Part shown: positions 1-18,477 of the stretch, one piece after another | Layout: each line of letters opens with the position of its first letter | Numbering within the stretch: the stretch's first letter is position 1 | Translations under genes and position numbers: made by a program | From: Spiroplasma endosymbiont of Antitype chi | Lineage (GTDB): Bacteria; Bacillota_I; Bacilli_A; Mycoplasmatales; Mycoplasmataceae | Assembly: GCA_964019725.1 (NCBI GenBank) | Contig: OZ026467.1 | Location: 2,100,347 to 2,132,346 of the forward strand | Reading direction: 5' to 3' | Length of the DNA: 32,000 nt | Notes under the pieces: model-generated | Database searches by the model: none | What the model was told of the DNA's origin: nothing | What the model saw: only the letters and a program-made list of their open reading frames with translations

Positions 1-1057
1 TAATAGTATCTCCGTCATTTTCATTAATACCAATTCATAATTTGTATTTATATTTTGTAGAATCATAATTTCTAATTTGATATTTTTTGTCAGAAAAAGA
101 TACAAAATCACTAGTATCAACAATTTCTTAATCATTACCAGTATTAATAGATATATCGTCATTACCTAATAATAAACTACCATTAATAGTTTTAATATTT
201 GCTCCACTTATTAATTTATCTTGTTTAAGATTAATATCTTGTGATGTTTTAACAATATATTTACTATCAACTTTTTCAATATAATTTTTATTTAAATCAC
301 TATCTTTAATAACATCTGAAGGAATATAACCACTTTGTTTTGCTTTTCAAACACCATTTTCTTCATAAATAGTATCATTATCAAACGGAACAATAAGTTT
401 AATATATTCGTTATAATCAATTTTAGAAAAGTCATTAATAGTTGGATAAGTAATATTTATTGAATTATCTGTTTGTAGTCGTTCTTTTAATCAAAATAAT
501 AATGTTGGATAAAAAGTTTTTTTACTAATATGTTTATATTCTTCTTCTCATGAATGAGCATAATTATCTAAACTATAATTATATGGTCTAGATACTGTTT
601 TACTAAATATAATATCAATTATTTCACCTGCTAATTTTAAAGCATTTTTAACATCTCTGGTAATATTTTCATTTGCTTCTCGGTCATTAGTTTGTGAATA
701 TGCTACACCACCTTGGGAAAATGATGCACTACCAGTTAAATCATTAACTCCTTTTGGTAAATATCAATTTATAATTGCTAATAAACAAGCAGATTGAATA
801 TAACTTAATCATTTTTCATATTCAATTAAACCTGTATTATCTTTTTTTACTCAAGGAAACAAATCTTTTTTATTTATTTTATCTGAAATTGTCCCACCTG
901 ATAATCTATCCATTCATAAACTAGTTTTTAAAATAGCATTATAAATTAAATTATCATTATAAGCAGATTGTTTTCTATCATTAATAGGTTGTCAAAGTTT
1001 ACTTTCTTTAACATCTTCAACTTTTATAAATAATAAATTACTTAAATTATTTTCCAT
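1..1057 (-). pseudogene. Phage structural protein, possibly fibre/receptor-binding type; runs off left edge; one in-frame TAA
   Basis: ATG at 1057 overlaps the stop of the upstream gene (ATGGAAAATAA). The frame is open under table 4 to position 1 except for TAA at 128-130, after which 42 more codons stay open. The C-terminal part reads ...KLISGANIKTINGSLLLGNDDISINTGND..., which resembles repeat motifs I associate with phage fibre proteins (memory only). It is the last visible gene of the capsid operon. Confidence 0.45.
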
Positions 1058-1985
1058 ATAAAACACCTCTTAATTGATTACAATATTTATTTTTTAAATT
1101 ACTTGGCTTATAACTATTAACTCTTGTTTTTATTTTCTTAATTGTTTTGATAGTTTGATTAGTTTTGTAAAACATATTTTTAACTGGTGTTTTATATAAA
1201 TTCTTAATATTTTTAACATCACTTCGGCGTTCACGATACCATTTTTTATTATTAATTTCACCAGCAAAATTAAAATTAAAATGTCCAATCTTTAAATTAT
1301 TAATAAACTTTTTAATTTGTTGTAATTTTTGAACTGTTGTTAATGTTAATTTAGTAGTCCCTTTGGGATATTTTTCTTTTAATTCTTTTGGTAACCGTTT
1401 TTTAATATAATTTCTTAAATGACTAGGTAATCATTTTCTTAATCAATAACGCCAAAATAAAGTCCCTGCATTAGATACAGCATTACTTAATAATTTTCAA
1501 ATTTCAACTGTAACACTAGGGTAAACATATGGACCATAAAACTTCGGATGTTTTGCTGTTTTTGTATATATTAAAATAGTTAAATTACCTGTTAAAGTTA
1601 ACTTATTTGTAATATTAAACATACCACTATCAAGTCAACTACTATTTAAAGGTTGCCAATTAGTATTTAGATAATTTTCATTTTTAAATTGTTCTCTATT
1701 TTTAATATTATTATCTTTTTCTAATTGACTTAATATTTGTTGAATTTCTTTTTTATGACCTTTTTTAATTAAATCTAAATAAGTAAATGGATTTAACCAC
1801 CGATAAATATCTCCAACTTTACTTGTAATTTTATTATATTTATAAGTAATATAATTAATTGGTTTTAATACTTTATTTTGAACTTGATTAACTCTATTAA
1901 TTAAATTTACAAATTTACTTATTAAAGGTTTATTTTCTAAATTATTTACTAATAAAGTTAAAACTCGTAATATTAGTAAATTCAT
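1047..1985 (-). CDS. Hypothetical phage protein, 312 aa, Lys/Arg-rich
   Basis: ATG 1985, TAA 1047-1049, 939 nt in frame. ORF-track fragment 1635-1985 continues across TGA (1635-1637) and further TGA codons without TAA/TAG. Same strand as the capsid-like gene and directly downstream of it. Confidence 0.55.
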
Positions 1986-2057
1986 TGTTTATTAATAATT
2001 TTTAATTACTACATCAATCGGATTTGTTTGACCACTAGCGTTATTTTTACCTCGAAT

Positions 2058-3362
2058 TTAAACGTCAACAGTTTTATCATTTGTAATATTTATTGGTCAT
2101 TCTTCACCTTTGCTTTCAATAAAGTAATCAAAATAACTTTCAGTTAAAGAACTGTTTACGGCTTTTATTACTTTTAAAACAACATCTTTAAATTGTAGTT
2201 TTAACTGTTCTGGTGTTGCTTTTGTTGGGTCTGCAACATGAATAGTTGGTTTATCTAATTTATTAATTTTACTAATATCTATTTTACTTGGTGTTGGTGC
2301 AGTGATTACATAATCAACTGGCACTCTAAAAGTTTTATTTAGATTACTTTTGGCAGTATTAATTTCATCTTGTGTTGGTTGTTTTTCTAAAATAATTTTA
2401 CATGTTTTTGGATATAAAATAGTTGGTGTTGCATATTGTACTTTACCAATTCATTTCGGGTTAGCAGTATCATTATCTAAAACTTGTTGAATAGTATCCA
2501 TATTAATTGGATATGCTCATACTTGTTTATTAATAATTAAACCATTTACATTAGTAAAATTATAACCTTTACCTCGGTTAACTTGTCCTTTTGTATATGT
2601 TTTTTCTAAATGAAAACTTTTAGATACTGGAATACCCATTGCGGTATTTTCATATAATTCACCATTAACCATAGCTTTTAATTGAGCTTGTGAACCAATT
2701 ACTTTTAAATAAGCAGGTGTTAATCCTAAATATGCTCTTCGTCCTAAAACTATAAACATTTTATCGGTTGGTAAACCAAAATATAAATCACTAATTTGAT
2801 TTGTTAATTCAATCAAAGTTTCATTTAATGTAAAGAATGCTTTATTTGCATCATCTGCATTTTCTGCTGTATAACTACGAAATGTAATTACCTCATATTG
2901 ACCATCTGATAAACAATAATCATAAATAAACTGAATTAATTCACATTCTAAATTAACAAATTTATTTTGTACAACACTAGAAATAGCATCGGCAATAACA
3001 CCATTTTTAATATTTTGTTCTATTAATGCTAAGTCAAAAGCCTCATTCATTAATTTTAAATTAAATCTTTTATCAATAGGAACTGGGATTATTGTTAATC
3101 CAATTGTTTGAGTTGTTCCACCATTTGGTAATGAATAATCATATTGTCATACTACACGATGAGTTAAATTATATACTGATTGTCCTGCATTAGGTAATCA
3201 AGCAACTTGTTCCGCTGTTGCTGTTGCATACTGCATAATACTTGCATATTCATTATATAAAGGTCCGCGCAATAATGCATTAACCATATCAACATACGCT
3301 TTTTGGTTTGTTGTATTACCCTCTAATGTAAAAGGCACTTGTGGTAAATTAATTGTTGCCAT
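2058..3362 (-). CDS. Putative phage major capsid protein (434 aa), intact
   Basis: RBS TAAGGAGTG precedes ATG 3362. Track fragments 2517-3050 and 2097-2324 are in the same frame and joined by TGA; the stop is TAA 2058-2060. It lies immediately after a scaffold-like gene in a terS-terL-portal context. The size is typical of a capsid protein, but no diagnostic motif was recognised. Confidence 0.5.
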
Positions 3363-3378
3363 AATATTTCACTCCTTA

Positions 3379-3840
3379 TTATCTAAGGTTTTTAAGTGTA
3401 TAATCAGTTAATTTTTTAATTTCTTCCGGAGTATATGCTCCTTTTTCTTTAATAGTTTCAATTTCATCATTTTTATTTTCAGTTGATTTTTCAATCATAT
3501 CTTTAATAAAATTAGTTGGCGAAATTGATTATTGTTCTTCAACAAACAAATCAGGTTTTAATTATTTTAAAGTTTGCATTTTTTCAGATAAAGAACTACC
3601 ACTAACTTTATTTAAATTAGTTTTAATATCTTCAATTTTAGTAGATGGAACATCTTTAAAAGCCTTTAATTCATCTAATTCATTAGATAATTTAATAAAG
3701 TCTTCTTTTGATATAACATCTTCGCGTTTTTGCACACTTTCTCTAATTTGTTTTGCTTCATTATTAAACTGATTTAAGATATTTTCTGCAATCTCTTCAC
3801 TTAAACCTTGTTCGATTAATTGTTCTTTTGTAAGTGCCAT
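3379..3840 (-). pseudogene. Phage scaffolding-like protein with two in-frame TAA
   Basis: RBS AAGAGGAG precedes ATG 3840. The sequence is acidic and helical-looking (MALTKEQLIEQGLSEEIAENILNQFNNEAKQIRE...), typical of scaffold proteins. TAA at 3562-3564 and 3529-3531 both lie in a frame that stays open to TAATAA at 3376-3381, just before the capsid RBS. Confidence 0.55.
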
Positions 3841-4089
3841 TTTATAAACTCCTCTTTTTTTATTCTTGTTCGATTAACAAGTCGGCATAAACTCTTTTTT
3901 ACGGTAAAAGATTAAACCTATGGTTTAATTATATGCCAATAGTTCACAAATACAATACTTTTTCAATATAATATATATAAATAAAAATTTATAAACTTAA
4001 TATATTTTATTGCTAATTTAGCCCTTAAAACACGTAATAATGGGTATTTAACAAGATAAAATTTTTAAAATAAGTCATGATTTTATTTG

Positions 4090-4105
4090 TATATATATAT
4101 ATATA
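4090..4105. repeat. (TA)8 dinucleotide microsatellite in divergent promoter region
   Basis: tatatatatatatata read directly. Its 3' end merges into a TATAAT-like hexamer (4102-4107), about 55 nt upstream of ATG 4161. Confidence 0.9.
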
Positions 4106-4160
4106 ATAAAAATAGATCTTGATGTAAGGTTTCAAGATTAAGAAAGGGAGAAAAACAAGC

Positions 4161-4961
4161 ATGAAAAAGTTACTTAGTTTATTAAGTGTATTAATTATTA
4201 GTGGGACTGCTGTACCAACAACAATTGCCGCTAGTGCTTATCAAAAAGAAGAAAAATTAAATAGAAATAAAATAGAAAATAATAAACAAAACAATAATTT
4301 AAAAAATTTTAATACAAAAACAAGAACAAAAAGAGCTGTACATAAGTGTAATAAAATTGAAATTAGTGAAAATAAAGATTTTATTAAACAAAACAATAAT
4401 ATAATAAATGAAAGCACGAATTCAAATTTAAATTGAACTGGAGAAATTTGACTTAATTTTAATCACAAAGACATGGAATTTACTTCACAATATTATTTCG
4501 ATAAAGATGGGTCATGCTACTATATGATTGATATAAATGTTGAAAAAATGAATCCCAGTGATTATAACAGAATTTTTTTTGGTGGTCGCGAAGGTATGAG
4601 CTCAAAAAATCAGTTTACATATGCTACTTGAGGAAATAATCGACTTTGAGGAACTAATATTAATGACGTATTACAAGGCCGTGATTTAAAATAAATTATG
4701 CCGAGAATTAAAGTAGAAAATAATGATAATGATATTTCAAGGTTTTTACCTCTATCACTACAATATGTAAAAGATCATAAAGAAGGTTGGTCATATGTAA
4801 GTGTTTTTCAAAAATTTGGATTAACATATTATTATGATTCAAAAGAAGAGTCATATCATATCCAAGTATTAATAGGGCAATATGCTGGAGCTATATCGTC
4901 TTTTAGTGGCGGTATGTTGCATCTTGGTATAGGGGCATATCTTGAGTTAGGTAAAATATAA
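4161..4961 (+). pseudogene. Secreted protein (signal peptide, no lipobox Cys), interrupted by one in-frame TAA
   Basis: RBS AAAGGGAG precedes ATG 4161. The N-terminus MKKLLSLLSVLIISGTAVPTTIAASAYQ is a signal peptide. Reading continues across TGA at 4434 and beyond. TAA 4692-4694 is followed 3 nt later, in the same frame, by ORF 4698-4961, which has no RBS of its own. Confidence 0.5.
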
Positions 4962-4975
4962 TTTTAATTTAAAAT

Positions 4976-5497
4976 ATGAAAAAAATATTAAGTCTTTTTG
5001 GAACAATCACTTTAACTGGAACAAGTACAACAAGTTTAGTTGCTTGTAATACACAACAAGAATATACAGCAGAAGAATTAGAATATTTAAAAAAAGAAAA
5101 CCAAATAAATACAACTGATGAAACTATTAAAAACAATTTAGAATGAATAGCACCACAAGAAAAACCATTCAATAAAGTTGATAATAAATAATATTATGTA
5201 GTATGGCGCGGGGACACAAATCATAATTGATGTATTGTTAAATTTAACAATGATAAAATTTATAAAGAACATAGAAAAATGTTAGATAATAAAAATAATA
5301 TAGAACTTTATATTGGTGTTGAAATTTATTGAGGTTATGAAACTGTTATTTTGTTCATTGTTAATAATTATAATGATAGAGATGTTAAATGAAATAAAGA
5401 TAATGGAAAATATTTTAAAGCAATTTATCGTTGAAATTTAGATAATAATAAACCCAATTTAGGTATTGATACAAATGGTAATGTAAAGGTTAAGTAA
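4976..5497 (+). pseudogene. Lipoprotein of a YRW-motif family, in-frame TAA
   Basis: MKKILSLFGTITLTGTSTTSLVAC is a lipoprotein signal peptide with a lipobox Cys. TAA 5189-5191 is followed by 101 more open codons to TAA 5495-5497. The tail ...KYFKAIYRWNLDNNKPNLGIDTNGNVKVK and the segment YYVVWRGDTNHNW align with the 30807-31198 lipoprotein (KYYFVIWKQLYSNEW ... KGIYRWDGNDEP). The TAA aligns with a Tyr of the paralogue. Confidence 0.6.
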
Positions 5498-5514
5498 AAA
5501 TAGAAAAAAAGGCT

Positions 5515-6757
5515 TGCAAGAGTGCACCTAATTTAGTAAGTACTAATAAAAAGTATTTACTATTTTTTAATTACATCTTTTTCTTTACGATTGGAATATC
5601 ATGTATTTCATTTTATAACATCTTGAATATATTCTTCGTGTGGATTATATATTTTATTATGGATTGTAGCTTTCTTAAGTAATGAATGAAAACTTTCTAT
5701 AACAATATTATCTGCACAGTGGTAATTTTTCCCCATTGAAATTATAATACCGTTGTTAGATACACATTTATCGAGATAAATAGCGGATGTGTATTGATAT
5801 CCGTGGTCTGAATGAATTATTATTACATTCAGATCTTTTTTTTATTAATTTTATTTTATTAATTGCATCATTTAAATTATCTATTACTAATTTATTGTCA
5901 TTATATTTAGATCACTTTACATCAACTATTTCTTTAGTATATCCATCAATAATTGTTGATTGATAATATTTCTCTCCTTTTCAAATTAAATATGTTACAT
6001 CAGTATATAGCACTGAAAACCTTGTTTTTATATCATTGAATTTACGATTAATTAAATCAGGATATTGCAATAAACTTTTTTTTCTTTATTCTGTTTATAT
6101 TTCATTTTTCTTCTCATTTTTATTACATATTCAGTTTGTATTTGATTATTATGCATAATCCTTAAAACTTTTTTTGAATTATATTTTATATCATAATCTT
6201 CCTTCGAATATTTAGTAATTCTTCGATATCCAAATTGTTTTAAATTTTCTTCATAGACTTTTACAATATCATTTATTGCTTTTTTATCTTTTTTGCTACT
6301 GTCATAATTTTTATATTTATCTCAATAACTACGTTTTAACCCCGTTACTTCTAATAATAATTTTATTGAATATTAATGACAATTTTTTTTAATAAAAGAG
6401 ACGATTCTTAATTTGCTTAATTGTAAAAGTCATGGAGCTTTTTTAATAATTTATACCTTGTTTTATAATATTATAAATCTCTTTTGGTAAAAGAGATTTT
6501 AGATCCTTTAGGATTGTTTAATTTTTCTTTTTTATGATTTGCTCATCAAGATTATAATGTATTTGTATTTAGATTATATTTTTTTGCTACTATTTAACAA
6601 CTTTTTTGTTTAATTTCCTCAATGATTTTTGTTATAAATTATGATTTATATTTTTTATATTTTTGACCTTTTCTTGCAACATAAAAATTCACCATGTTTA
6701 AAAGTTTAGCAAAGTTTTTTTTACTTAACTTACTTTTTGGGGCACACTCTTTTGACA
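5515..6757 (-). mobile_element. IS3-family insertion sequence, transposase decayed
   Basis: Imperfect ~40-bp terminal inverted repeats: TGCAAGAGTGCACCTAATTTAGTAAGTAC at 5515, versus the reverse complement of the right end, TGTCAAAAGAGTGTGCCCCAAAAAGTAAGTT, ending at 6757. The minus strand encodes IS3-type OrfB motifs (...VLYTDVTYLIWKGEKYYQSTIIDGYTKEIV..., ...IIIHSDHGYQYTS..., ...NYHCADNIVIESFHSLLKK...) scattered over several frames with many stops. Confidence 0.75.
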
Positions 6758-6773
6758 TCTCTTTTTCTATTTT

Positions 6774-7100
6774 TTATCTTAGTTTAAATGTAATTTTAAC
6801 CGTATTGTTGCTTTTATTAGTAAAATTTAATTTATCAGAATTATTTGAAAAAGTTAAATTATTAAAATTTCCAAATTTTTTATAGTAAGGATAATAAGTA
6901 CCAATAATTTTTGGTCATATTACTTTTGAAAATCTAATTTTTAATTTCATATCATTTGTATAATATATTTGTAAATATACATTTTTAACATTATTATTAT
7001 TTTCTATATTTTTAATTGATGATATCTGCATCAAAAATATTAATGATAATTGACTTCTGCCTTCAATTTTATATTGTGTATGATATTTTTCTTCTATCAA
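6774..7100 (-). CDS. Hypothetical phage protein (~108 aa)
   Basis: Track ORF 6915-7100 (TTG start) continues across TGA 6915-6917 to TAA 6774-6776. It overlaps the end of the upstream gene. There is no ATG and only a weak RBS, so the start is uncertain. Confidence 0.4.
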
Positions 7101-8269
7101 ATCATCCGCTTTACTTTTATAACAAGTGATTTAATTTTTGTTGAAATTTCATATGTTTTAATGATTTTATTTTGAGGAAAATTAGCGTTTGTTATTTGTT
7201 GTTTTCCATCGTATTTAACAACAAGATCAGATAATTTTTCCAAAACGACACCACACACTTCAGTTCCCGCCAATAATTCTGTTGTTTTACTATAATCATA
7301 ATTAGCTATTTTAGTTGCACTATTGATAATAGAAAAATTATTAAGATTACTTATTTCTATTGTTTTATAAACATCTTGAAATTTACTAATACTTTGAATT
7401 GTTGGGTCAATTTGTCTTAAATCAATTTCAGTTTCATAATAACCTGTATATTCTTCTGTATCATCAAATAAATTAACCACAGTATTTAAAGTATTCTTAC
7501 ACTGGGGTTGTGCTGTAAAATTAAAGTTAATAGGTAATTTTGCATCAGAAGGAATAATATCTTTTGTATAAGGTTGATAGTTATATGGCATTGGCGGAAG
7601 AACATATTGTGGGTAATTAAATGTTGGTATTTCATAATCGTGTGGTAATAAGGAACTAGTTTGATAATTAGTTGTCATATCACGTAAATAATTATTTAAT
7701 ACACTTTTTGTTTTACCACGAAAACTTCATACTGATAAGCGTAAATAATCTTCTTCGTTATTTGTATATGGATTATCAGCATAAAAGATAATTTCAAAAT
7801 TACCTTTATATAATGCTTGTATTGAAGACATATCAATTATATAACTACAATTTGTCCCATCTATTGTTTGTAAGAATTAGCAATTATTATCTTTTTCACC
7901 ATCACTAACTGGTGTTTGTGCATCTACTGCTTTGGTTTTTTCATTAATTAAGTAAAATCGGTTAGTTTTAAGGTTTAATTGTTTTAAATTATAAGTTGAA
8001 TAAACTAATTCACTTGTTTTTTTACCATCTTTAGTTAAAACTGTACCTTTTAATTTATCAATTAATAAAGTAGTAAATCCTAAACTAGTAGCATTTGCTC
8101 CAAAAATAGCACCGACTTTATCATTCCCTTGTTCTCTAAATATTTCAAATGGTAAATAACCTTTTCCAGCAGCTTTATCACCTCAAAAGGCATCATTATA
8201 AAAACTATAAACATTAGCACACTCATAAAGCCCCAGTAAGTCATTGAAAATTAGGTCAAGTTTTTTCAT
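7094..8269 (-). pseudogene. Phage protein of unknown function (391 codons) with one in-frame TAA
   Basis: ATG 8269 (MKKLDLIFNDLLGLYECANVYSFYNDAFWGDKAAGKGY...). It is in frame with track ORF 7097-7678 and stops at TAG 7094-7096 after TGA. In-frame TAA at 7877-7879. Confidence 0.45.
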
Positions 8270-9986
8270 CTTGGTTAATTACTCAACCTCATGGAATACC
8301 AAATGAAATAAAGTTTAAGAACTTACCAACTCCACCCGGTATAGTAAAAGGGTTAAAAACTAATTTTTGCGTATATTTTAAAGGTAATACCGTAATTTGG
8401 CGATTAATAAAATTATTCATATTTAAAATATCTCAAACATTACATGCACCCATTTTATTATATTCAATTTGAACTTGACCAACAGTATTACCAAATTCAT
8501 CTTTTCTTATGAAATAAGATGAGGCTTGTGTACTAATGATATTATTAATATCTTCATTATTTATTCTTATTTCGCTCGGCGGTGTTATTTTTCAATCTTT
8601 AGACCAGTAAAATTTAGAATCCCTATCTTCTTTATAAACATATCTACCAACAGTAGAATTAGATGCTTATGTAGTGGTGGGGTCAGTTATAACAATACAT
8701 TCACTATTTTTTTGTTTTCAAAAGTCATATCTACTTTCCATATCTTTTTTTCAATCTTCATAACCTGTTATCATAGTTGGTTGAATACCTTGAATATTAT
8801 ATCAACTTACTTCGGGTGATGCATAAGTATTAACTTTGTCAGGTGGACACGGATACATGTTATACATTAATAAATCACGAGAATTCATTACTTTTTTATT
8901 AAATTGACCTTTAATTATTGGTCGGCCAATAACGAGCATATCAAAAAATATTGGATTACCATAAAATTTAACTGCCATCGCTCTAACCCCTGGGTCTTTT
9001 AATAAAATATCATCTAACTCAATAGTTGATGTGTTTGTCTTTTCATCATAAGTTATTTTAGGAAAACAATAACCTTCACCAGGTGCACTTGTTTGTATAA
9101 ATTGTCTTACTGATAAACCACTATTACTAATTTTGTCATTAATACTTGAAAGGGTAATTTCTTGTCATAAAAAACTACCATCATATGGTGAATAATAATT
9201 AATAACATTTGATGGATATAATCATTGTCTATCTTGGGGAGAAGAATTAATATCACCACCACCAATATTTAAACCACGGTCATTAAATACAGTATAAAAA
9301 TTATAATAATCATTAATATTTAATTTATTTACATCTTCATCTAAAATTAATAAAGTATATTGTCTTTCAGTTGATTGCTGTGTAAATACTTGCTCAAATT
9401 TTGCTTCACCAAATTGAATTGAACTTCTATCATCAATCATATAAGCATCTCAATATTTACCAACTTTAACTTCTTTTGTATAAAAATTATCGGCTTTATT
9501 ATCATTATTCATAAAATAACTTAATTTATATTGCTTTAAGTATTCTAACATTTTATTAATATCATAAATATTTTCACCATCAATTAATTTTCAATAAACA
9601 TTATTATTTTCATCTTTTAATTTTATCGCAAAAGGTGTTTCATTATTGGCTCATATTGTTGAGTTAACTGGTTCATTTTTAAAGTCATCAATAGTTAAGA
9701 TATTAATTTCTTCACCTTTATATTTTTGAACTATTTTTAAACTACCTTGTCATTGAACAATAGTACTTTCCATATTATCAAATATGCGTGAATAACTACC
9801 ATAATCACTTGGTTTTGCATTATTAGGTTTTCATCCTGTTTCGGTATCAGTTATATATGAACTATAAACATTAAAAGTAAATACCATTCAATGTCTATTA
9901 TCTATTATATTTTCTCTAATATCTATTAAAGTATCATGGGCTTGTTTTCTTAATTCTTCCATAACACCCGGGTTAATTCTACTCAT
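8223..9986 (-). pseudogene. Large phage protein of unknown function (587 codons) downstream of portal-like gene, one in-frame TAA
   Basis: ATG 9986 follows the portal TAATAA. It is in frame with track ORF 9222-9440; TAA 8667-8669 is in frame; the terminal TAA is 8223-8225. By position it could be a minor head or tail protein, but no motif was recognised. Confidence 0.45.
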
Positions 9987-9989
9987 TTA

Positions 9990-11381
9990 TTAATTCTCCT
10001 TAATTTCTGTTCTACCTTGTAAGGAATTTTGATTATTACCAGTTTCATCATATTCCATTAATTTATTATTATGTTCTATTTCTTTGACTTGTATTTTATC
10101 TTGTCATTTTTCTATTTTTTCAAAATATTTGGCTGCTTATAATTCATCAATATTTTCATATTCAGTAATTGCTCTTATTGGTTCCATTGTGCCATTATCT
10201 AATCTAGCAGTAATTAATTCATTTTGTCGTATTTGATCTACTAAACTAGCACTAACAAAATCAAACCCATAAGGGCGTTCACAAATACCATCTCATAAAC
10301 CATAATATTTTAAAACTGTATCAAACATCTTAGTATAATATTTTTTACGATATGCTTGTAAATATGCTTGTTTCTCTAAATCTTTTGTTTTAGTTAATAA
10401 TGATTGTGTTTTATTTTGGTCATTATCTGACTTATCACCAAAAGGACTAGAAAAATGACATGCTCAATATAATTGTTCAATAATTGATTTTTGGTCTTCG
10501 GTATATGTTTCTAAGGTTGGTGTTCCTTGTATTACTTGTAAAGATTGGGATAATTGACCATCTACTGTTGATGAACTTGATTGAACAAAAATATCATCAA
10601 ATACATCTTGTAGTACTTTTTTATTACCTTTGTTATAAGCAGTCATTAAATCATCACTTAGTATTCCATATCAGTGCGTACGATTTGCATATCTTTCTTT
10701 TGATTTAATATTAAAACTATCTTCTAAATCAAATTGTAATTTATAACAATTTGCCATTGTAGGTCATGGATTTAAAGTAGTTGATGTTGATAAGAATAAT
10801 GGATTAAGTTCATTAATCATTTCTCAAAAAGGTACGATACCTAATTTATTTTTAAATTCTTGTACTAAAACAGGTCTAACATCATCTTTAATTTGTGTTT
10901 TACTTTGTCCAACAACTATTTCATTATTTTTAGGTCAACCTTTAATAACTATTTTATCTTTGGTACAAATTAAATTTAAAATAAAACCACTATCTGATTG
11001 ATGATAATTTAATCAAATATTAGCACCTTGTTCAATTTCGTTTATTTTACTTACACGAGATGTAAAGTTAAAAGGATTAATTCATAAATCAATATTACCA
11101 TCACTAGTTTCTAATAAACCAAAGATAGTTTTACCAATTAAACTCGCTGTTAATTCATTTTTATCTAATTTTTCTTTTATTTTATAAGTTTCATATCATC
11201 AATTTAATTTTTCTAAAATGTCTTTACGATGCGACTTAAATAAAATATCTTTACCATTTACTAATCGCATTTGATGGTGAGCAATAATATTTGCTAAATT
11301 AATAGTTCAATCATAATTATAAAATTTTAAAACAATATTAATATCATTTAAGTTTGGTAAAGATTGATATGTATTATTCAT
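9990..11381 (-). pseudogene. Putative portal protein (463 codons), one in-frame TAA near C-terminus
   Basis: Strong RBS AAAGGAG precedes ATG 11381. It is in frame with track ORF 10464-10646. The size and the position after terL fit a portal. TAA at 10137-10139 is followed by 48 open codons to TAATAA (9987-9992). Confidence 0.5.
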
Positions 11382-11652
11382 GGTTATTTTTCTCCTTTAA
11401 ATTTAAGATAAGTGCATAATTAATAATATTTACTGTTAATAAACTAGGTTCATTTGCTAAAACTTGTACACATACTTTAACTTTTTGATATTTTTTAATA
11501 TATTCGTTATATAAATTTAATTTACATATTGCGATATTATCCTTTTTTAATTCTTGACAAAGTCTTTTTTTAACTTGTCCACAAACAGACATATATGGTC
11601 TTTTTGCATTTATTACACGCTCATCATGTATTACATAAATATCTTTTTTCAT
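11374..11652 (-). CDS. Small hypothetical phage protein (92 aa)
   Basis: An internal ATG at 11652 with RBS AAAGGGAGTGAA, inside track ORF 11374-11679. It is coupled to the terL stop (TAATG) and overlaps the portal start by 8 nt. Confidence 0.4.
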   Translation of the reverse strand: MKKDIYVIHDERVINAKRPYMSVCGQVKKRLCQELKKDNIAICKLNLYNEYIKKYQKVKVCVQVLANEPSLLTVNIINYALILNLKEKNNHE

Positions 11653-13121
11653 TAAGTTATTCACTCCCTTTGTTGTCATAATTTATAATCTGCTGAATTA
11701 TTATGTTTAACCATTGGTAATAATTCAAAGTGTAAAGCATAAAAATCACTATCAAATGTATCATCATATAAGTCTAACATTTGTTCTTCTCTGGCATCTG
11801 GTTTATCTTCTCATTGAATTAATTCATATTGGGTTTTACTTACAGGACATTTTTCTCATAATCATTTTAATTGATTAGTATTTATTAACATTGTAAATGC
11901 TTCTACACGATGTTTTATTTTAAACTTATGCTTTTGTGACGGTTTAAAATGCATGTATTGACCAAAAGTATAATTATATTTTTCTTTATTTAAACTTTCT
12001 AATGTTGCATAAGCACTATCATCAACATTTATTGATATAGCTTGCTATATTAAATTAAAATATTGATTTAATTGATTGTTGTAAAACTCTAAAATATCTT
12101 TTACTTGTTCTAATGGTCCTTTAAATTGTTGTGTAGCATTTGAGTGTGTATATTCAGCAACTTTATATGCTTTTTTATCAAATGAATTATATAGTCAAAA
12201 ACTCGCTGCTGTTGTATGTCCCTTGGGACTAGTAGAGTTTGCTAAGTCAACACCACCTAATAATTTTGTTGGTTGAATAATATTTGTTGCTTGCATAATA
12301 TCAATATATCTTGCAAAGATTTAACCACCAGTATTACCGGGCAAACCTCAACTCCATACTCTTGCTCTTTCAATATCTAATTGTTCTAATCTTAATTGTT
12401 CATTAACTTTATCTTGTGGTAATTCATAATTAAGTCTTCAACTAGAATAATGAATAATAATTTTCATATTTCATTTTTCAATATATTTAATTTGTTCATA
12501 TTTACTAATCATTATTTCTTCATCAAAAGGCACTAATTCATTACAATAACCAACAATATATCTTTTTAAACTTTCAGGATTACATGTATTAATTGTTATT
12601 TTATTTTGATAACCACGAATAGCAAACTCTAAATCACTTAAATCTTTTTGTTGAAATTGGTCACATTCTTCTCTTTAATCAATAACTAATTTATATTTAT
12701 TCAAATCAGCAAAGGCTTTTAATTTTTCTTTACGACTTGGTGAATGTAAACCTTTACAATATATTTTGCTACCATTTGATAAAGTAAAAGTAAAATTTGA
12801 TAAATTAATAGTATAAGGAATATGATTTTCATCTAGCATATTTCATATATTTTGAAATACACTATCTTTTAAATCTTTACTCCAATACATACTAGCAATT
12901 ATACAAATTGGTTCTTTAATTAATAAACTAATTTTTAATAATTCACCAAACATTTTAATATTTGAAATAGTCTTACCACTATATCGTGTCCCAATTTGAT
13001 TAATTTCATTTACTAATTCATATTTCTTAGCAAATGGATATTTATTACCAATACTACTATTTTGTAATAACCAATAAGGAGTTTCTAACAAATAAGTAAA
13101 ATGATTAAGAATTATTATCAC
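11652..13121 (-). pseudogene. terL: Terminase large subunit with three in-frame stops
   Basis: GTG 13121 begins a 490-codon frame. A Walker-A-like GTRYSGKT lies near the N-terminus. The gene follows a terS-like gene. In-frame TAA at 12675-12677 and 12321-12323, and TAG at 12045-12047; the frame is otherwise open under table 4. Confidence 0.7.
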
Positions 13122-13503
13122 TTTCTTTTTTAATATCTCTAATATCCGTTTGTAAATTAACTATTATTGGTTGTTGATTATTTAAGTTTAATTCTTTTTC
13201 AAGTTCTTTTTCTTGCAGTGAATATTTATAATTAAATGCTCGTTGTCAATATAATTTAGCACCATCTGGTGATTTCATCATAAAATTAATTATTTCACTT
13301 TCAATTCTATCAACTTGTTTTTCAAGCAAAGGAACTATCTTTTCGCTCGCATAAGTATCATATCTTCATTTGCGAGAAAGATTGAATCCATTGGTTAAAT
13401 CATTCAAAGTATATGGTTTATTAGGTGATTTATTTTGCCAAAATTCATCTATTTTACGATAAAATGTTCGTAAAATTGCTGTTTTTGGATTAAATTCTTT
13501 CAT
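13105..13503 (-). CDS. terS: Terminase small subunit-like protein (132 aa), intact
   Basis: RBS AAAAGGAG precedes ATG 13503. The pattern ...PYTLNDLTNGFNLSRKWRYDTY...IESEIINFMMKSPDGAKLYWQRAFNYKY resembles the Terminase_2-type small subunit pattern (HTH, then a ...GAIF.LKN.FGW-like tail), recalled from memory. It overlaps the terL start by 17 nt. Confidence 0.55.
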
Positions 13504-13589
13504 TTTTTACTCCTTTTTACATATTAAAATTGCTATTATTTCAACAATATGATTAAATAAAAGAGCAATAAATAACTGTAAAAATGTAT

Positions 13590-13615
13590 AAAAGAACTTT
13601 CACAAGTTCTTTTTA
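13590..13615. terminator. Hairpin with flanking A/T runs at edge of phage module
   Basis: AAAGAACTT-tcac-AAGTTCTTT followed by TTT. The stem is 9-10 bp. No gene can be clearly assigned to it. Confidence 0.3.
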
Positions 13616-13791
13616 TTATCTATATTTTACATCAAAATAAAAAAAAGTAAAGTAATTTACTTTTTTCAGTTAAATTAATTTGCTAATAATTAACAATTAA
13701 ATTATAACACAATAAATAAAAAATAATATTTTTTTTTGCATTTTTATTATTTTTGTGTTAATGTGTAGAACTGAGGAAGGAGGGTAAAAAA

Positions 13792-15132
13792 ATGATAAAT
13801 ATTGATAACAGCTTTTTTAATAATTTTAATAATTTGTTATATATACAAAGTATTCAAATTATTCAAAAAAATTTAGAAGATTGTGATGAATGAATTTTTA
13901 AAAATTATAAAATTAATGAAACTTTAAAAGAATTTAAAGATTATAAAGTAAAAGAAATAAAACCAAGAACATTAACTATTTTAAATGGGAAAATAACTTT
14001 TAAAAGAAGAAAATATTATAAAATTAATCCAGAAACATGTAAAGAATAATATATTTTTCTTTTGGATAAACTTTTAGGAATTGAAAAATGACAAAGAATA
14101 GATAATTCTGTTAAAGAAAAAATATTATCATTTATTGGCAAGAAAAAAACATATCAAGATATTTTAGATACTATGGAAAATGTAAAAATTTGTATAAAAA
14201 CAATTTCAAATATTATGAAAAATGCAAAAACTGATAAAGAATATTACCTTAATAAAACTGATAAAAAAATAAAGGTACCTCATACTTTATATATTCAAAT
14301 TGATGGAACTTATTTGAAAATGTGAAATGAAAAGAAAACAGAAAAAAAGAAAATAAAAAAACATAGTATATTTTCAAATGTTCATACTGGTTTTGATAAA
14401 ACAAAATCAACGAAAAAAAGACCTGTAATTCAAGATAAATTAGGTGTTATAGAGCTAGACAATATTCCGGAATATATTAAAAAAAATAGTAAATTAACTA
14501 ATTTTGTTAATAAATTACTTACATTAATTACAAGTTATTATGATGTTAATGACAATATTGAATTTATGGTATTAGGAGATGGCGCACCTTGAATTAAAAA
14601 TATTGTAAAATTTATTCAAGAATATTTTCCTAAAAATAAAGTACATTACACGATAGATAAATTCCACCTTACAAGTAGATTTAAAAAATTATATCCTTAT
14701 CAAAGTAAAAACAAAGAAAACAGAGAAACATACCATAAAGCAGTCGATTACTTTTTTAAAGCTAAATATGAAAAATTATTATAATGTTTAGAAAACAGTG
14801 TTTCTTTTATAAAAAAATCAAAAATTAAATTCTTAAAAGAGACAATTAGATTAATTAAAAATAATGAAGAAGGTGTCAGAAATCAAACATTATGAAATAA
14901 TATTGGTTGTCATATTGAGGGTGATATATCACATTACTGTAAAGGTATTTTGGTTAAAAAAGCAACTTATCATGAAAAAACCCTTAAAAATAAATTAAAT
15001 ACTAGTATGATAAATTTTAAAAATAAAATTAGTTTATTTAATACTAATGAACCATTAGAAGAAAATAGAATTAATTATTCAGTTAATAATTTTGTAAATA
15101 ATAATTTACAACTAAACTTATATTTTTATTAG
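13792..15132 (+). pseudogene. ISLre2/UPF0236-type transposase, two in-frame TAA
   Basis: RBS GAAGGAGGG precedes ATG 13792; 446 codons run to TAG 15130-15132. Motifs ...LYIQIDGTYLKMW..., ...MVLGDGAPWIKN... and ...TIDKFHL... match my recollection of UPF0236/ISLre2 proteins. TAA at 14047-14049 and 14782-14784. Confidence 0.65.
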
Positions 15133-15210
15133 TTTTATCTAAGAAATTAAATAATTTTAATAAAAATGTATTTTTGTCGTGGAAAAATTTAAAAATAATG
15201 AAAAAATATA

Positions 15211-15238
15211 TTGACAATAAAATTAAAAGTAATATAAT
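15211..15238 (+). promoter_or_regulatory. Consensus sigma-70-type promoter-like element without obvious downstream gene
   Basis: TTGACA (15211-15216), a 16-nt spacer, then TATAAT (15233-15238), read directly. Confidence 0.3.
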
Positions 15239-15552
15239 TTAATTAAGTAAGTAGTATATTATTCCACAATTTATAAGATATTAATTAAAACCCCTAAACA
15301 ATACATACAACCTAAAATATTTATATTAAAATAAATATTTTAATTAATTTATATAAATTTAATATAACATCTTAAACTTAATACCATATTTTTATTCTTT
15401 TTTAACCTTTGTTAAAATTTAATAATTATTATTCCCGATTGTTAACTTTTATTTGAAAACTGTTTTAATTTTTTGCGATAAAAAAATCCTGACATTGCTT
15501 TTTCATAATCTATTATAACAACTTATGAAAAAAGACTTTTTTCAAAGCAAAG

Positions 15553-15657: not shown

Positions 15658-15980
15658 TTTATATTTTTTATAAAAAATAATCTTTTGTAATACTATCTTA
15701 TATTATTTATGAATGGGAAATTTTGTACAAGAAAAAATGAAAGAAAATTTAAATATTGTTAAAACTCGTTTAATTAAATATCATAAATTAATTAATTTAA
15801 AAATATTATTAATTTATTTAAATAATTTAGAATTATATTTTATTAAAAATCAGATTTCGCTTGTTCAAAATTTTGTTTGTAGTGTTTCGTAACGAATGGT
15901 AATTATGGCTAATTTTCCTAAATTAAAATTAATAACAATTAATCGACATTATGGTTTATTAGTTTAAAGAAATGATTTTT

Positions 15981-17148
15981 GCGAGGTACCATATACATTT
16001 TAGACCAGTTAGTCTTTTAAAAAATTTTAACACAGCTTCCGATGGTGTTAAAAAATTTATTATTTTATGTCGTCTAACATTGTTGTAATAATCTAAAAAG
16101 ATAGTAATTAATTTTCGTAATTGATTAATATTTTCAGGATAACGAGAAAGATATTCAAAAAAAATATTTATTTTGATGAAATCTTTCAATTTTCCCGTTT
16201 GATTACGGAGAACGAATTGGTGTTGTTTGATGAATAACACATTTTTGATGTAATAATTTTGTAAACTAACTTTTATGATATTTATACCCCGGATTATAAC
16301 TATAAAAATATTTGTGACCATTATCGGTTCTAATTCTTTTTATTCTAATTTTATATTATTTAAAAAATCATCATAAGACTGATTAAAAATACCAATTGCT
16401 GATTAATTTGATTTATTTTCAGATAAATAAGCAAGACCAAAGCGTGATTTTTCATAAATAAAAGCATAAAAATATAAATTACGTTTAAAACCAGTTCAGT
16501 TATATTTGGTGTAATAATTTTAATATCATGTTGTAAATGTCCTAATTCAGACATTTCATAACGTTTATAAGTCTTAATTTTCTTTTTTTAGGACAAAAAT
16601 TATTAAATTATTTATTCCATTTAATTAAAGTTTTAATTTTATGTTTAATTACTTTCTTTTTATATTCAAAAAACCCAGATAGTGTTAAATTATAAAAATC
16701 ATAAATACCAGTTCAGTATTTTTGTCGATATTTTTTCACCATTTTTGCAATAGAAATCTTGTAAGTTTTTTAATAATGGTTATTAATATTAATTGTTCTG
16801 GTTTATTTTTTAGCTAAAACAATAAAATTTAATTTTTCTTTAAGACAAAGTTGAATCTTTTTAGCTTAATTATATAAATTTTGTTTTGATTTATAAAATA
16901 ATTTAATTAAATTATTTAATGAGTTTTTATATAAATAGTATTTTTGACATAAATTAAAATAATTAATGACATTTTGATAAATATAATTTGTTTGTTTTGA
17001 AGGTTCTTATTGTTAATATCATTTTTTGATTTTTCTTTGTAATGAATATAATTATTTTTCATTAGAAATACTTGTTACCATATACTTTTAATCTCCATTC
17101 TAATTTAAAGACTAAATTAGTGGTCTAAAATATATATGGTTTTCACAC
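15981..17148 (-). mobile_element. IS481-like (rve integrase-core) insertion sequence, transposase heavily decayed
   Basis: A perfect 15-bp direct repeat AAAGAAATGATTTTT lies at 15966-15980 and 17149-17163. It flanks imperfect inverted ends (GCGAGGTACCATATACATTTTAGACCAG versus the reverse-complemented right end GTGTGAAAACCATATATATTTTAGACCAC). The minus strand from ATG 17081 gives ...ELGHLQHDIKII..., ...RIRTDNGHKYF..., ...TTPIRSP*SNGKIERFHQ..., ...FLDYYNNVRRHKIINFLTPSEA..., spread over several frames. Confidence 0.65.
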
Positions 17149-17644: not shown

Positions 17645-18477
17645 CAACCATTAAAAATAACAAGGCAAAATATCCAATTATTAATTTATGTAAAACATTG
17701 AAATTGGCTAGATCAACATATTACTATCAATTAAAGGCAAATAATCCCAAGAATAATCAAAACATTGATAATGCTGTTATCAGTATTTTTCTAAAAAGTC
17801 GTAAAAATTATGGAACAAGAAAAATTAAAATCATGCTAGCTCAGCAAAATATTATATTATCTCGTGTAAAGATTAGTAAAATAATGAGAAAATATAACTT
17901 AATTTCAAATTATACAAAAATCAAATACAAACATTCAAATACAACCAATTTTACATATAAATATAATAATTTATTAAATCAAGAATTTAATAATTATAAA
18001 CTATATGAAGTTGTTGTCAGTGATTTAACATATGTTTTTATTAAAAATAAATGATATTATGTTTGCTTTCTAATTGATTTATTTAATCGTGAAATTATTA
18101 GTTATGATGTTAGTTTACACAAAGATGCAAAATTAGTTAAAAATACCTTTAATAAAATTAACATTACATTAAATAATATTAAAATATTTCACACTGATCA
18201 AGGTAGTGAATTTAACAACAATCTTATTTATAACTTTTTAACTAAAAATAACATTCAAAAATCTTACAGTAAACCAGGTTGTCCTTATGACAATGCTGTT
18301 GCGGAATCAACATACAAAATTTTTAAAACTGAATTTATTAAAAATAATAAATTTAAAAACATTGGGCAGTTTAAATTAAAATTATTTGATTACATTAATT
18401 GGTACAATAATATTCGAATTCATAGCAAACTAAATTATTTAACACCAGTACAATACAGAAATTATTACTCTACATAA
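17632..18477 (+). CDS. IS3 OrfB (DDE transposase core), frame intact
   Basis: This is the -1 frame relative to orfA, entered at GGCAAAAAATAA (A6 at 17636-17641). Motifs seen: ...VVVSDLTYV...[16 protein letters not shown]..., [53 protein letters not shown] at 18475-18477. Only TGA codons interrupt the track ORF. Confidence 0.75.

What the first reader, a model, noticed from the sequence alone, without database searches (positions are those of the whole stretch)
1..13503. Decayed tailed-phage (Caudoviricetes-type) packaging/head module in a genome otherwise dominated by filamentous plectrovirus DNA
The minus-strand gene order is terS-like, terL (Walker A GTRYSGKT), a small ORF, a portal-sized gene, two large unknowns and a small ORF. 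After an insertion come a scaffold-like gene, a capsid-sized gene and two more structural-looking genes. Starts and stops are translationally coupled (TAATG, ATGA). This is a canonical dsDNA tailed-phage morphogenesis layout. From memory, spiroplasma prophage sequence in the literature is overwhelmingly SpV1-type, and the tailed spiroplasma viruses (SpV2/SpV3 morphotypes) are poorly characterised at sequence level. If so, this could be a rare sequence trace of such a virus. It is clearly defective: terL has 3 stops, scaffold 2, and portal, X, Y and the last gene 1 each.
Basis: partly seen in the sequence, partly recalled or inferred. Interest (0 to 1): 0.6.

Follow-up and report, generated by a model that had tools for sequence, protein, structure and literature searches.

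The report
Decayed transposon-like tailed prophage of Spiroplasma
The block is a dead copy of an already sequenced short-tailed Spiroplasma phage, common rather than rare, and its ends and an intact empty site in related genomes show that the whole 20-kb phage inserted like a transposon.

Summary
Window 1-15312 carries terS, terL, portal, a large virion gene, scaffold, capsid and two more late genes on the minus strand.

It is not a rare trace. The DNA is collinear and about 90% identical to Spiroplasma phage MaM-2019a (NSRO-P1/P2), sequenced from particles of S. poulsonii. The full prophage is 20,359 bp and starts 5,046 bp left of the window. Such DNA covers 15-16% of this 2.43-Mb genome, against 7.8% for plectrovirus. 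No copy keeps an intact terL, portal or large virion gene. Intact sets exist in relatives.

One thing appears unreported in the papers I could search. The prophage ends in 28-bp imperfect inverted repeats and carries a Mutator-superfamily DDE transposase of the mycoplasma-ICE type at its right end. It is flanked by an 8-bp duplication (TAAAATAT). Seven related genomes place the two flanks 8 bp overlapping; five read by sequence show one TAAAATAT. Particle DNA and tandem copies join the two ends across a variable 5-bp spacer. A long-tailed prophage and a 110-bp MITE share these ends.

The parts
1..1057 (-). Head-tail-connector-like late gene. It runs off the left edge of the window and has one in-frame TAA at 128-130.
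   Evidence: tblastn to the NSRO-P1/P2 'head-tail connector' gives 76-96% identity. Stop position. The function rests only on the depositors' HHpred note. I found no family hit.
1050..1949 (-). Intact late gene of about 300 aa with unknown function.
   Evidence: 85-87% identical to the NSRO-P1/P2 305-aa protein, with no stops. No Pfam or PHROG hit.
1998..3362 (-). Major capsid protein gene (HK97 fold). A premature TAA at 2058-2060 leaves a 434-aa ORF.
   Evidence: 84-90% identical to the NSRO capsid proteins. The AlphaFold2 model has a core pLDDT of 70-90. Foldseek against PDB gives 288 matches at E<0.001, and every row printed (30) is a phage capsid entry, among them 8i4l, 8e16, phi29 and T7.
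3382..3840 (-). Scaffold-like coiled-coil gene with two in-frame TAA codons (3562-3564 and 3529-3531).
   Evidence: 91-93% identical to the NSRO 153-aa protein that lies upstream of the capsid gene. Stops. The scaffold role is inferred from position and size only.
4161..5500 (+). Plus-strand accessory module of signal-peptide and lipoprotein ORFs. It is native to the phage and partly decayed.
   Evidence: 4161-4268 and 4976-5482 match the NSRO-P2 plus-strand ORFs at the same position, at 89% and 58%. The ORF at 4976 has a mollicute lipoprotein signal, NF038029 at 35 bits.
5768..6070 (-). Fragment of an IS3-family transposase. This is the real secondary insertion inside the prophage.
   Evidence: NF033516 at E 2e-10 and Pfam rve at E 4e-7. 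This stretch has no match in NSRO-P1/P2.
6777..9986 (-). Single large virion gene of about 1070 codons, the P123 homologue, now a pseudogene. It has TAA at 8667 and 7877 and frame changes near 8230 and 7100. The C-terminal third is divergent.
   Evidence: tblastn to the NSRO P123-like protein gives residues 1-587 at 90-91%, 582-962 at 65-67% and the C-terminus at 44%, in three frames. Stops. No family or PDB sequence hit.
9993..11381 (-). Portal protein gene with one in-frame TAA at 10137-10139.
   Evidence: 93-94% identical to the NSRO portal. Eight of 22 distant relatives match Pfam PF05133 SPP1_portal, best E 4e-7. The depositors' HHpred notes give 98-99% to SPP1 portal 2JES. My own fold failed at pLDDT 34.
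11377..11652 (-). Intact 92-codon ORF between terL and portal.
   Evidence: 93-95% identical to the NSRO small ORF, with no stops.
11655..13112 (-). Terminase large subunit gene with three in-frame stops (TAA 12675, TAA 12321, TAG 12045) and no frameshift.
   Evidence: 94-95% identical over all 486 residues to NSRO terL. The N-terminal fragment hits phrog_3717 terL at E 6e-4. The intact homologue L005:1321-2778 scores 264.8 bits on TIGR01547 (cut-off 105) and 40.9 bits on Pfam Terminase_3 (cut-off 23.2).
13108..13503 (-). Small terminase-like gene, intact.
   Evidence: 92-93% identical to NSRO terS. The only profile hit is weak, Pfam GP3_package at E 0.011 and below cut-off. The role is inferred from position and from the depositors' note.
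13792..15132 (+). DDE transposase gene of the Mutator superfamily (mycoplasma-ICE CDS22 / UPF0236 type), with two in-frame TAA codons (14047 and 14782).
   Evidence: 88% identical to the NSRO-P1 transposase. That protein scores 293.6 bits on NF046004, the Mbov_0401 family ICE transposase-like model (cut-off 162), and 75.9 bits on Pfam UPF0236. The window's own fragment 14062-14784 hits UPF0236 at E 4e-12.
15285..15312 (.). Right terminal inverted repeat of 28 bp. It matches the left repeat at 20 of 28 positions in this copy and 22 of 28 between the consensus ends. The left repeat lies outside the window at genome 2095300-2095327.
   Evidence: Many copies end sharply here. A pattern search finds GGTTGTATGTA at 15302-15312 on the minus strand.
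15313..15320 (.). Right copy of the 8-bp target-site duplication TAAAATAT. The left copy directly precedes the left repeat.
   Evidence: In seven related genomes the matches to the two flanks overlap by exactly 8 bp. The five I read by sequence carry a single TAAAATAT there.

Best explanation
Window 1-15312 is the right three quarters of one complete but dead prophage. The whole element spans genome 2095300-2115658 and is 20,359 bp long. It belongs to the short-tailed Spiroplasma phage family that was sequenced from S. poulsonii particles as MaM-2019a NSRO-P1/P2.

Shown here:
- The late operon is terS, terL, a small ORF, portal, a P123-like large virion gene, a plus-strand lipoprotein module, scaffold, an HK97-fold capsid gene and two late genes.
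- The early recombination genes lie left of the window.
- A DDE transposase gene sits at the right end.
- Within the window the element carries 14 in-frame stops and 2 frame changes in one gene.
- The whole element is bounded by 28-bp imperfect inverted repeats and an 8-bp duplication of a target that related genomes carry once, uninterrupted, about 320 bp downstream of guaC.

Inferred life cycle: the phage uses its Mutator-superfamily transposase in place of an integrase. The transposase is of the type that moves mycoplasma conjugative elements. It excises the phage, or copies it out, as a circle in which the two ends abut across a 5-bp spacer. The circle is replicated into concatemers and packaged by the headful by terS/terL. 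A new copy then inserts at AT-rich sites with no evident sequence preference, duplicating 8 bp. In this genome the lineage has multiplied and then decayed by stop-codon mutations. It can no longer make particles.
For: Family identity. blastn shows the window collinear with NSRO-P1/P2 at 89-92%. All 20-odd genes match in order, and the phage records are annotated.

Phage nature. terL passes TIGR01547 and Terminase_3. The capsid ORF has the HK97 fold. The portal links to SPP1_portal through distant relatives.

Decay. No intact terL, portal or P123 exists anywhere in the genome.

Transposition.
- Many copies share sharp ends, and the ends are inverted repeats.
- The window's copy has the TSD TAAAATAT, and four more left/right end pairs have perfect 8-bp TSDs.
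- In seven related genomes the two flanks overlap by exactly 8 bp, and the five read by sequence carry one TAAAATAT.
- The transposase scores 293.6 bits on NF046004.
- A junction of right repeat, 5 nt and left repeat occurs in both NSRO particle contigs and in tandem copies in three relatives. The spacer differs in all five.
- A 110-bp MITE with the same left repeat has perfect 8-bp TSDs in 63 of 112 copies, against 0 of 112 in the control.
- A 30-kb long-tailed prophage carries the same ends and an 84%-identical intact transposase.

Literature. Mycoplasma ICEs have the same layout: inverted repeats juxtaposed in the circle, the DDE gene next to one repeat, and 8-9 bp direct repeats (PMC7466169, PMC3942029). 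Ramirez et al. report circular permutation and terminal redundancy and state that an integrase is missing.
Against: No experiment shows that this transposase moves the phage, so the life cycle is inferred from footprints.

One fully intact copy in a relative (L005, with upstream DNA L115) has no transposase next to terS and no recognisable left repeat in the DNA I fetched. A second (L027, L116) showed no transposase match and no repeat either. The module is therefore not universal.

The spacer is 5 bp, whereas the literature gives 6-10 bp for related elements.

The portal could not be confirmed by fold or by direct profile match.

No tail or lysis genes are identified. The P123, connector and scaffold roles rest on position or on the depositors' notes.

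The multiplication within this genome could be intragenomic transposition of already dead copies rather than infection.
Confidence: 0.85

Rival explanations
1. The block is a rare surviving sequence trace of a tailed Spiroplasma virus (SpV2/SpV3 morphotype) that is otherwise uncharacterised, sitting in a genome otherwise filled with plectrovirus DNA.
For: The module is a tailed-phage module. A plectrovirus prophage does lie at about 24.5-32 kb of the same window.
Against: Three deposited phage genomes match at 84-89% protein identity and about 90% DNA identity, and they are described in a paper. The capsid gene gave 114 confirmed matches in nine other Spiroplasma genomes. In this genome tailed-phage DNA covers 15-16% against 7.8% for plectrovirus.
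Confidence: 0.03
2. The transposase and inverted repeats belong to an ordinary insertion sequence that happens to lie beside the phage. On this view the phage integrates by another, unseen mechanism, and the 20-kb unit moved passively, perhaps once, as a composite.
For: The transposase gene with the right repeat also occurs away from this phage type. The fully intact copy L005 in a relative lacks it, and L027 showed none in the DNA fetched. No integrase is annotated, so absence of evidence cuts both ways.
Against: The 8-bp duplication and the empty sites bracket the entire prophage, not the transposase gene. No left repeat lies upstream of the transposase gene in the window. Particle DNA and tandem copies join the right and left repeats across a variable 5-bp spacer. 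At least one of the 'solo' transposase copies, at 1690483, lies inside the second, complete 30-kb prophage, which has the same two ends and a TSD. The others share its upstream sequence.
Confidence: 0.08
3. The cluster is not viral but a domesticated particle or adhesin system. This covers the historical P58/P54/P123 'adhesin' reading in S. citri and a gene-transfer-agent-like device.
For: UniRef still names homologues 'Adhesin P54' and 'P123'. Ramirez et al. found a host toxin gene contig and an IS in particle DNA.
Against: The genes are a terminase, a portal and an HK97 capsid protein. Every copy in this genome is broken, which is decay and not domestication. The copies are mobile, with TSDs.
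Confidence: 0.03

Closest known systems
Spiroplasma phage MaM-2019a, clones NSRO-P1/P2 (OL689227, OL689226; Ramirez, Leavitt, Gill and Mateos; bioRxiv 10.1101/2021.12.09.471767)
   Same: The gene order is the same from the early genes to the transposase. DNA identity is about 90% and protein identity 84-95% for terS, terL, portal, scaffold and capsid. The inverted-repeat ends are the same.
   Different: This copy is integrated and flanked by a TSD. It carries 14 in-frame stops and 2 frame changes within the window, an IS3 fragment, and a divergent C-terminal third of the large virion gene. The paper did not describe repeats, TSDs or an integration mechanism, and called the integrase missing.
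Mycoplasma integrative conjugative elements (ICEA and other MICEs) with the CDS22 DDE recombinase, p-MULT 5 family (PMC7466169, PMC3942029)
   Same: The transposase family is the same (NF046004 at 293.6 bits). The gene lies next to one of two terminal inverted repeats. Direct repeats of 8 bp form on insertion. The free form has the repeats juxtaposed across a few base pairs. Insertion shows no evident site preference.
   Different: The cargo is a tailed-phage genome with terminase, portal and capsid, not a type IV secretion and conjugation module. The spacer is 5 bp rather than 6-10 bp. Transfer would be by virions.
IScream phages and Faecalibacterium phage Lagaffe, which use IS30-family transposases instead of an integrase (PMC12823448)
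   Same: These are tailed phages that lack a tyrosine or serine integrase and are thought to be mobilised by an IS-type DDE transposase. They are detected as circles and in particles.
   Different: The transposase superfamily differs (Mutator / p-MULT 5, not IS30). Here there is one transposase gene at one end rather than IS30 copies at both ends. The host group is different (Mollicutes).
Mu-like transposable phages
   Same: The whole phage genome is bounded by transposase-binding ends and inserts with a short target duplication at many sites.
   Different: Mu uses an rve-type MuA with MuB, makes a 5-bp duplication, replicates by transposition and packages with host DNA at the ends (from general knowledge, not tested here). 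Here the enzyme is Mutator-type, the duplication is 8 bp, and particle DNA is reported as circularly permuted with abutted ends.
Plectroviruses SpV1 / SkV1 (Vespertiliovirus)
   Same: They are also Spiroplasma prophages, multi-copy in this genome, and also integrate with a DDE (IS30-like) transposase.
   Different: They are filamentous ssDNA phages of 7-8 kb with no sequence similarity to window 1-15312. One occupies about 24.5-32 kb of the window.

Membership tests
NSRO-type short-tailed Spiroplasma phage (MaM-2019a) | Collinear DNA similarity over the whole genome | tested here: met
   Window 35-15182 aligns to NSRO-P2 5266-19148 at about 90%. The upstream genome aligns to positions 127-5266.
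NSRO-type short-tailed Spiroplasma phage (MaM-2019a) | Same gene set and order (early recombination genes, two membrane proteins, late operon, transposase) | tested here: met
   tblastn of all annotated NSRO-P1/P2 proteins against the region.
Caudoviricetes head and packaging module | Terminase large subunit | tested here: met
   TIGR01547 at 264.8 bits (cut-off 105) and Terminase_3 at 40.9 bits (cut-off 23.2), both on an intact homologue 95% identical to the window's gene. The window fragment hits phrog_3717 at E 6e-4.
Caudoviricetes head and packaging module | HK97-fold major capsid protein | tested here: met
   The AlphaFold2 model of window ORF 2058-3362 gives 288 PDB matches at E<0.001 by Foldseek. 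The best is 8i4l at E 3e-11, and all 30 rows printed are phage capsid entries. No sequence-profile hit.
Caudoviricetes head and packaging module | Portal protein | tested here: inconclusive
   There is no direct Pfam, PHROG or PDB hit, and the fold failed at pLDDT 34. The link is indirect: 8 of 22 distant relatives hit PF05133, best E 4e-7. The depositors' HHpred notes give 98-99%.
Caudoviricetes head and packaging module | Small terminase | tested here: inconclusive
   The only hit is GP3_package at E 0.011 and 16.3 bits, below the 29.4-bit cut-off. The position upstream of terL fits.
Mutator-superfamily (p-MULT 5 / MICE-type) DDE transposable element | Transposase of the family, placed next to one terminal repeat | tested here: met
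   NF046004 at 293.6 bits (cut-off 162) on the NSRO-P1 protein, which is 88% identical to the window's broken gene. The gene ends 153 bp before the right repeat.
Mutator-superfamily (p-MULT 5 / MICE-type) DDE transposable element | Terminal inverted repeats | tested here: met
   The 28-bp ends match at 20 of 28 positions in this copy and 22 of 28 between the consensus ends, and they recur in many copies.
Mutator-superfamily (p-MULT 5 / MICE-type) DDE transposable element | Direct repeats of 8-9 bp at the insertion, with an empty site elsewhere | tested here: met
   TAAAATAT lies on both sides. In seven relatives the flanks overlap by exactly 8 bp, and the five read by sequence carry a single copy. 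Of 112 MITE copies, 63 have perfect 8-bp TSDs.
Mutator-superfamily (p-MULT 5 / MICE-type) DDE transposable element | Free form with the two repeats abutted across a few base pairs from a flank | tested here: met
   The junction of right repeat, 5 nt and left repeat occurs in two particle-derived contigs and three tandem junctions, with five different spacers. That it is a circle was not tested.
Mycoplasma ICE (MICE) | Conjugation genes (TraE/TraG-type type IV secretion) | tested here: not met
   The annotated genes of NSRO-P1/P2 and the ORFs I scanned in this copy are phage-type or unknown. It is therefore not an ICE.
Mu-like transposable phage | MuA-type (rve) transposase with MuB and a 5-bp duplication | tested here: not met
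   The transposase is UPF0236 / Mbov_0401 type and the duplication is 8 bp.
IScream phage | IS30 transposase genes at both ends | tested here: not met
   None of the element's ORFs that I scanned hit IS30. It has a single Mutator-type gene at one end.
Plectroviridae | Similarity to SpV1/SkV1 genomes | tested here: not met
   Plectrovirus matches in the window begin at about 24.5 kb. The overlap of the two coverages genome-wide is 638 bp.

The most novel reading that the evidence does not exclude
Spiroplasma tailed phages may form an undescribed class of transposable phage. At least two kinds are involved: the 20-kb short-tailed NSRO type and a 30-kb long-tailed type. Their integrase would be a Mutator-superfamily (p-MULT 5) DDE transposase shared with mycoplasma conjugative elements. 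The same enzyme would also drive a 110-bp MITE family and the expansion of symbiont genomes. On this reading one transposition module has been exchanged between ICEs, two phage morphotypes and MITEs within the Mollicutes.
Probability: 0.6. Interest if true: 0.6.

Novelty: new variant of a known kind. Interest (0 to 1): 0.45.

Why it matters
As first stated, the finding is ordinary. It is one more dead copy of a phage family that is already in GenBank and is abundant in Citri-Poulsonii-group Spiroplasma.

The ends are what add something. The authors who sequenced this phage wrote that it lacks an integrase and could not say whether it is lysogenic. The inverted repeats, the 8-bp duplication, the empty sites and the end-to-end junctions give a concrete and testable answer. 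The phage appears to integrate with a Mutator-type DDE transposase of the kind known from mycoplasma ICEs.

This would extend the recently recognised idea of phages that borrow IS transposases (IS30 'IScream' phages) to a second transposase superfamily and to the Mollicutes. It would also help explain how prophage DNA can come to fill 15% or more of a vertically inherited symbiont's genome, because such an element needs no attachment site.

Tried and rejected
- Direct Pfam and PHROG scans of the window's ORFs gave almost nothing. The families became visible only through intact homologues, NCBIfam and a fold.
- The portal resisted direct confirmation. A PDB profile search, hhalign against SPP1 gp6, relaxed Pfam scans and an AlphaFold2 run on a shallow alignment (pLDDT 34) all failed. 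Only the link through distant relatives worked.
- The P123-like protein has no hit in Pfam, PHROGs, NCBIfam or PDB sequences. Its role as a tail or receptor-binding protein is only a guess, based on size, position and its variable C-terminus.
- I looked for an internal left repeat upstream of the transposase gene, which would make it a self-contained IS. There is none in the window.
- The 'solo' transposase copies share a different upstream sequence. At least one lies inside the 30-kb prophage, so it is that prophage's end and not a separate IS.
- I expected the repeats at two intact copies in relatives (L005/L115 and L027/L116). They were not found there.
- I did not establish which named organism the genome is.

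Full report
**What is in the window**

The DNA has 20-29% G+C and reads open only with TGA as Trp. The Walker A motif GTRYSGKT lies in the 148-aa N-terminal terL fragment.

fixes the stop positions.

| Gene | In-frame stops |
|---|---|
| terL | TAA 12675, TAA 12321, TAG 12045 |
| portal | TAA 10137 |
| scaffold-like gene | TAA 3562, TAA 3529 |
| last gene | TAA 128 |

**What it is**

A tblastn search of the phage collection with the capsid-sized ORF found three records of Spiroplasma phage MaM-2019a from S. poulsonii NSRO, at 84-89% identity over the full length. The annotated records NSRO-P1 and NSRO-P2 are collinear with the window at 89-92% DNA identity, from window 35 to 15182. The genome to the left of the window continues the alignment back to phage position about 130.

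Mapping every annotated phage protein onto the region shows three things.
- 'X', 'Y' and the small ORF are pieces of one gene of about 1070 codons. It is the homologue of S. citri P123. It is 90% identical in its first 587 residues, then 65%, then 44% at the C-terminus, and the pieces lie in three frames.
- The supposed insertion between this gene and the scaffold gene is mainly the phage's own plus-strand accessory module of signal-peptide and lipoprotein ORFs. An IS3 fragment has been added at 5768-6070.
- Beyond terS lies the phage's transposase gene.

The element is therefore a whole prophage of 20,359 bp (genome 2095300-2115658). Its early genes (RecT-like, RuvC-like and small ORFs) and two membrane-protein genes lie left of the window.

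**My own tests of the phage assignment**

Direct scans of the window's ORFs gave only a weak terL hit.

An intact homologue from a fly symbiont (L005), 95% identical to the broken terL, passes NCBIfam TIGR01547 (PBSX-family terL, 264.8 bits against a cut-off of 105). It also passes Pfam Terminase_3.

The capsid ORF has distant relatives at 20-32% identity. With them as the alignment, AlphaFold2 gave a model whose core has pLDDT 70-90. Foldseek against PDB returned 288 matches at E<0.001. All 30 rows printed are phage capsid entries, among them cyanophage P-SCSP1u, Che8, phi29 and T7.

The portal could not be folded or matched directly. Distant relatives from other Spiroplasma lineages, found and aligned, do match Pfam SPP1_portal. 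Eight of 22 do so, best E 4e-7. This agrees with the depositors' HHpred notes.

The scaffold, connector and P123 roles remain inferences.

**How common it is**

Ramirez et al. isolated short-tailed particles from S. poulsonii and sequenced three contigs of about 19 kb. They reported circular permutation and terminal redundancy. They also noted homology to the old S. citri P58/P12/P54/P123 fragment U44405.

A scan of one genome per species found 114 confirmed capsid homologues. The 77 loci kept come from nine other Spiroplasma genomes: S. phoeniceum (two assemblies) and symbionts of bees, flies, weevils, a bug and tsetse.

In the window's own genome, blastn similarity to NSRO-P1/P2 covers 360-391 kb, or 15-16%. 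It falls in 143 blocks, 15 of them 10 kb or longer. Plectrovirus similarity covers 189 kb, or 7.8%. The premise of a plectrovirus-dominated genome came from the plectrovirus prophage at about 24.5-32 kb of this window.

None of the copies in this genome has an uninterrupted terL, portal or P123 gene. Complete intact core sets exist in the symbionts of Sarcophaga carnaria and Polydrusus pterygomalis.

**The ends**

Many copies stop at the same base on the left (genome about 2095300) and at window about 15312 on the right.

The terminal 28 bp are imperfect inverted repeats. The left end is GGTCGCATGTAAAAAATAAGGATTTTAA. The right end read inward is GGTTGTATGTATTGTTTAGGGGTTTTAA. Both are flanked by TAAAATAT.

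The left flank is unique DNA about 320 bp downstream of an intact GMP reductase gene. I searched both flanks in 20 congeners. In seven of them the matches to the two flanks overlap by exactly 8 bp. The five I read by sequence carry a single TAAAATAT at that point. This is an empty site, so the whole prophage arrived by an insertion that duplicates 8 bp.

**The transposase**

The NSRO-P1 transposase is 88% identical to the window's broken copy. It scores 293.6 bits on NF046004, 'Mbov_0401 family ICE element transposase-like protein' (cut-off 162). Its hits to ISLre2 and ISKra4 are weaker, and it also matches Pfam UPF0236.

This is the CDS22 / p-MULT 5 group of Mutator-superfamily DDE transposases. 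According to PMC7466169 and PMC3942029, this group has the following properties.
- It moves mycoplasma ICEs.
- The gene lies next to one of two inverted repeats.
- Insertion makes 8-9 bp direct repeats.
- Insertion sites show no evident preference.
- It passes through a circle in which the repeats are separated by a few base pairs of flanking DNA.

Such a junction exists here. Both particle-derived NSRO contigs contain right repeat, 5 nt and left repeat. So do tandem prophage copies in three bee-symbiont loci. The five spacers all differ: ATAAT, ATTTT, TATAT, AAAAG and TTATT.

**Other elements with the same ends**

A 110-bp MITE bounded by the left-type repeat is present in 112 paired copies. 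Of these, 63 have perfect 8-bp duplications, against 0 of 112 in a shifted control.

A second prophage lies at genome 1661926-1692010. It is 30,085 bp long with TSD AATTAAAA. It has the same left end, an intact 443-aa transposase 84% identical to that of NSRO-P1, and the same right end. Its structural genes are of a different, long-tailed type: terL phrog_9, portal phrog_12, a protease-capsid fusion phrog_10, a major tail protein and a tape measure protein.

The transposition module therefore travels between phage types. This argues that it is the phages' integration device and not a chance IS neighbour.

**Limits**

Nothing here shows enzymatic activity. One fully intact copy in a relative (L005) lacks the transposase and recognisable repeats in the DNA I fetched, and a second (L027) showed neither. 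The 5-bp spacer is shorter than the 6-10 bp reported for related elements.

Ramirez et al. annotate the gene as a transposase but describe no repeats or duplications, and they state that an integrase is missing. I found no paper in the held library that describes this mechanism for Spiroplasma phages. That is a search of one library and not proof of novelty.

The general idea has recent precedent in the IS30-using 'IScream' phages (PMC12823448).

**Verdict**

The element is a decayed member of a known phage family. Its mode of integration appears to be a new variant of known kinds: it combines a phage with the transposition module of mycoplasma ICEs.

Noticed in passing
window:24500-32000: A plectrovirus (SpV1/SkV1-type) prophage, 83-85% identical to SkV1_CR2-3x, SpV1-C74 and R8A2B.
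   Followed up: partly
G000:C1:1661926-1692010 (L117, L118): A 30,085-bp long-tailed prophage with terL, portal, protease-capsid fusion, major tail and tape measure genes. It has the same left repeat, an intact 443-aa transposase (84% identical to that of NSRO-P1), the same right repeat, and a perfect 8-bp TSD (AATTAAAA).
   Followed up: partly
genome-wide, e.g. G000:C1:2144624-2144733: A 110-bp MITE bounded on both sides by the prophage's left-type repeat. There are 112 paired copies, and 63 have perfect 8-bp target duplications.
   Followed up: yes
L045:18359-18365, L047:18852-18858, L064:18347-18353: In two bee symbionts (Lasioglossum calceatum and Seladonia tumulorum hosts), prophage copies lie head to tail with left and right repeats separated by 5 bp. 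These are either integrated concatemers or episomal phage DNA assembled into the chromosome.
   Followed up: partly
window:15553-15697: A repeat of about 150 bp with more than 130 copies in the genome at 84-93% identity. It lies just right of the prophage and is probably another MITE or an IS end.
   Followed up: no
window:15959-18477: IS3-family transposase remains. A 259-aa ORF at 17698-18477 scores 241.7 bits on NF033516, and there is a fragment at 15959-16321. The fragment at 5768-6070 inside the prophage matches the same IS3 model.
   Followed up: no
window:4161-4694: A plus-strand accessory ORF with a signal peptide gives a weak, below-threshold hit to the 'SAR2788 family putative toxin' model (E 5e-4, 19.9 bits, cut-off 50). 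It is a hint only. The slot is where related phages carry secreted proteins.
   Followed up: no
window:2058-2400 (capsid C-terminal ~100 residues): The last 100 or so residues of the capsid protein form a separate module. It recurs at 43-85% identity in other proteins, including a 3184-aa protein with 25 matched stretches (P0061), and is replaced in many copies in relatives. It is likely a swappable surface decoration domain.
   Followed up: no
window:22530-23627: Two adjacent minus-strand ORFs both match the MATE efflux transporter model in successive parts. This looks like a host gene split by decay.
   Followed up: no
window:1-32000: Nearly all disabling mutations in the prophage are single TAA codons: 12 of 14 in-frame stops. 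This fits the AT-biased decay noted elsewhere in this genome.
   Followed up: partly
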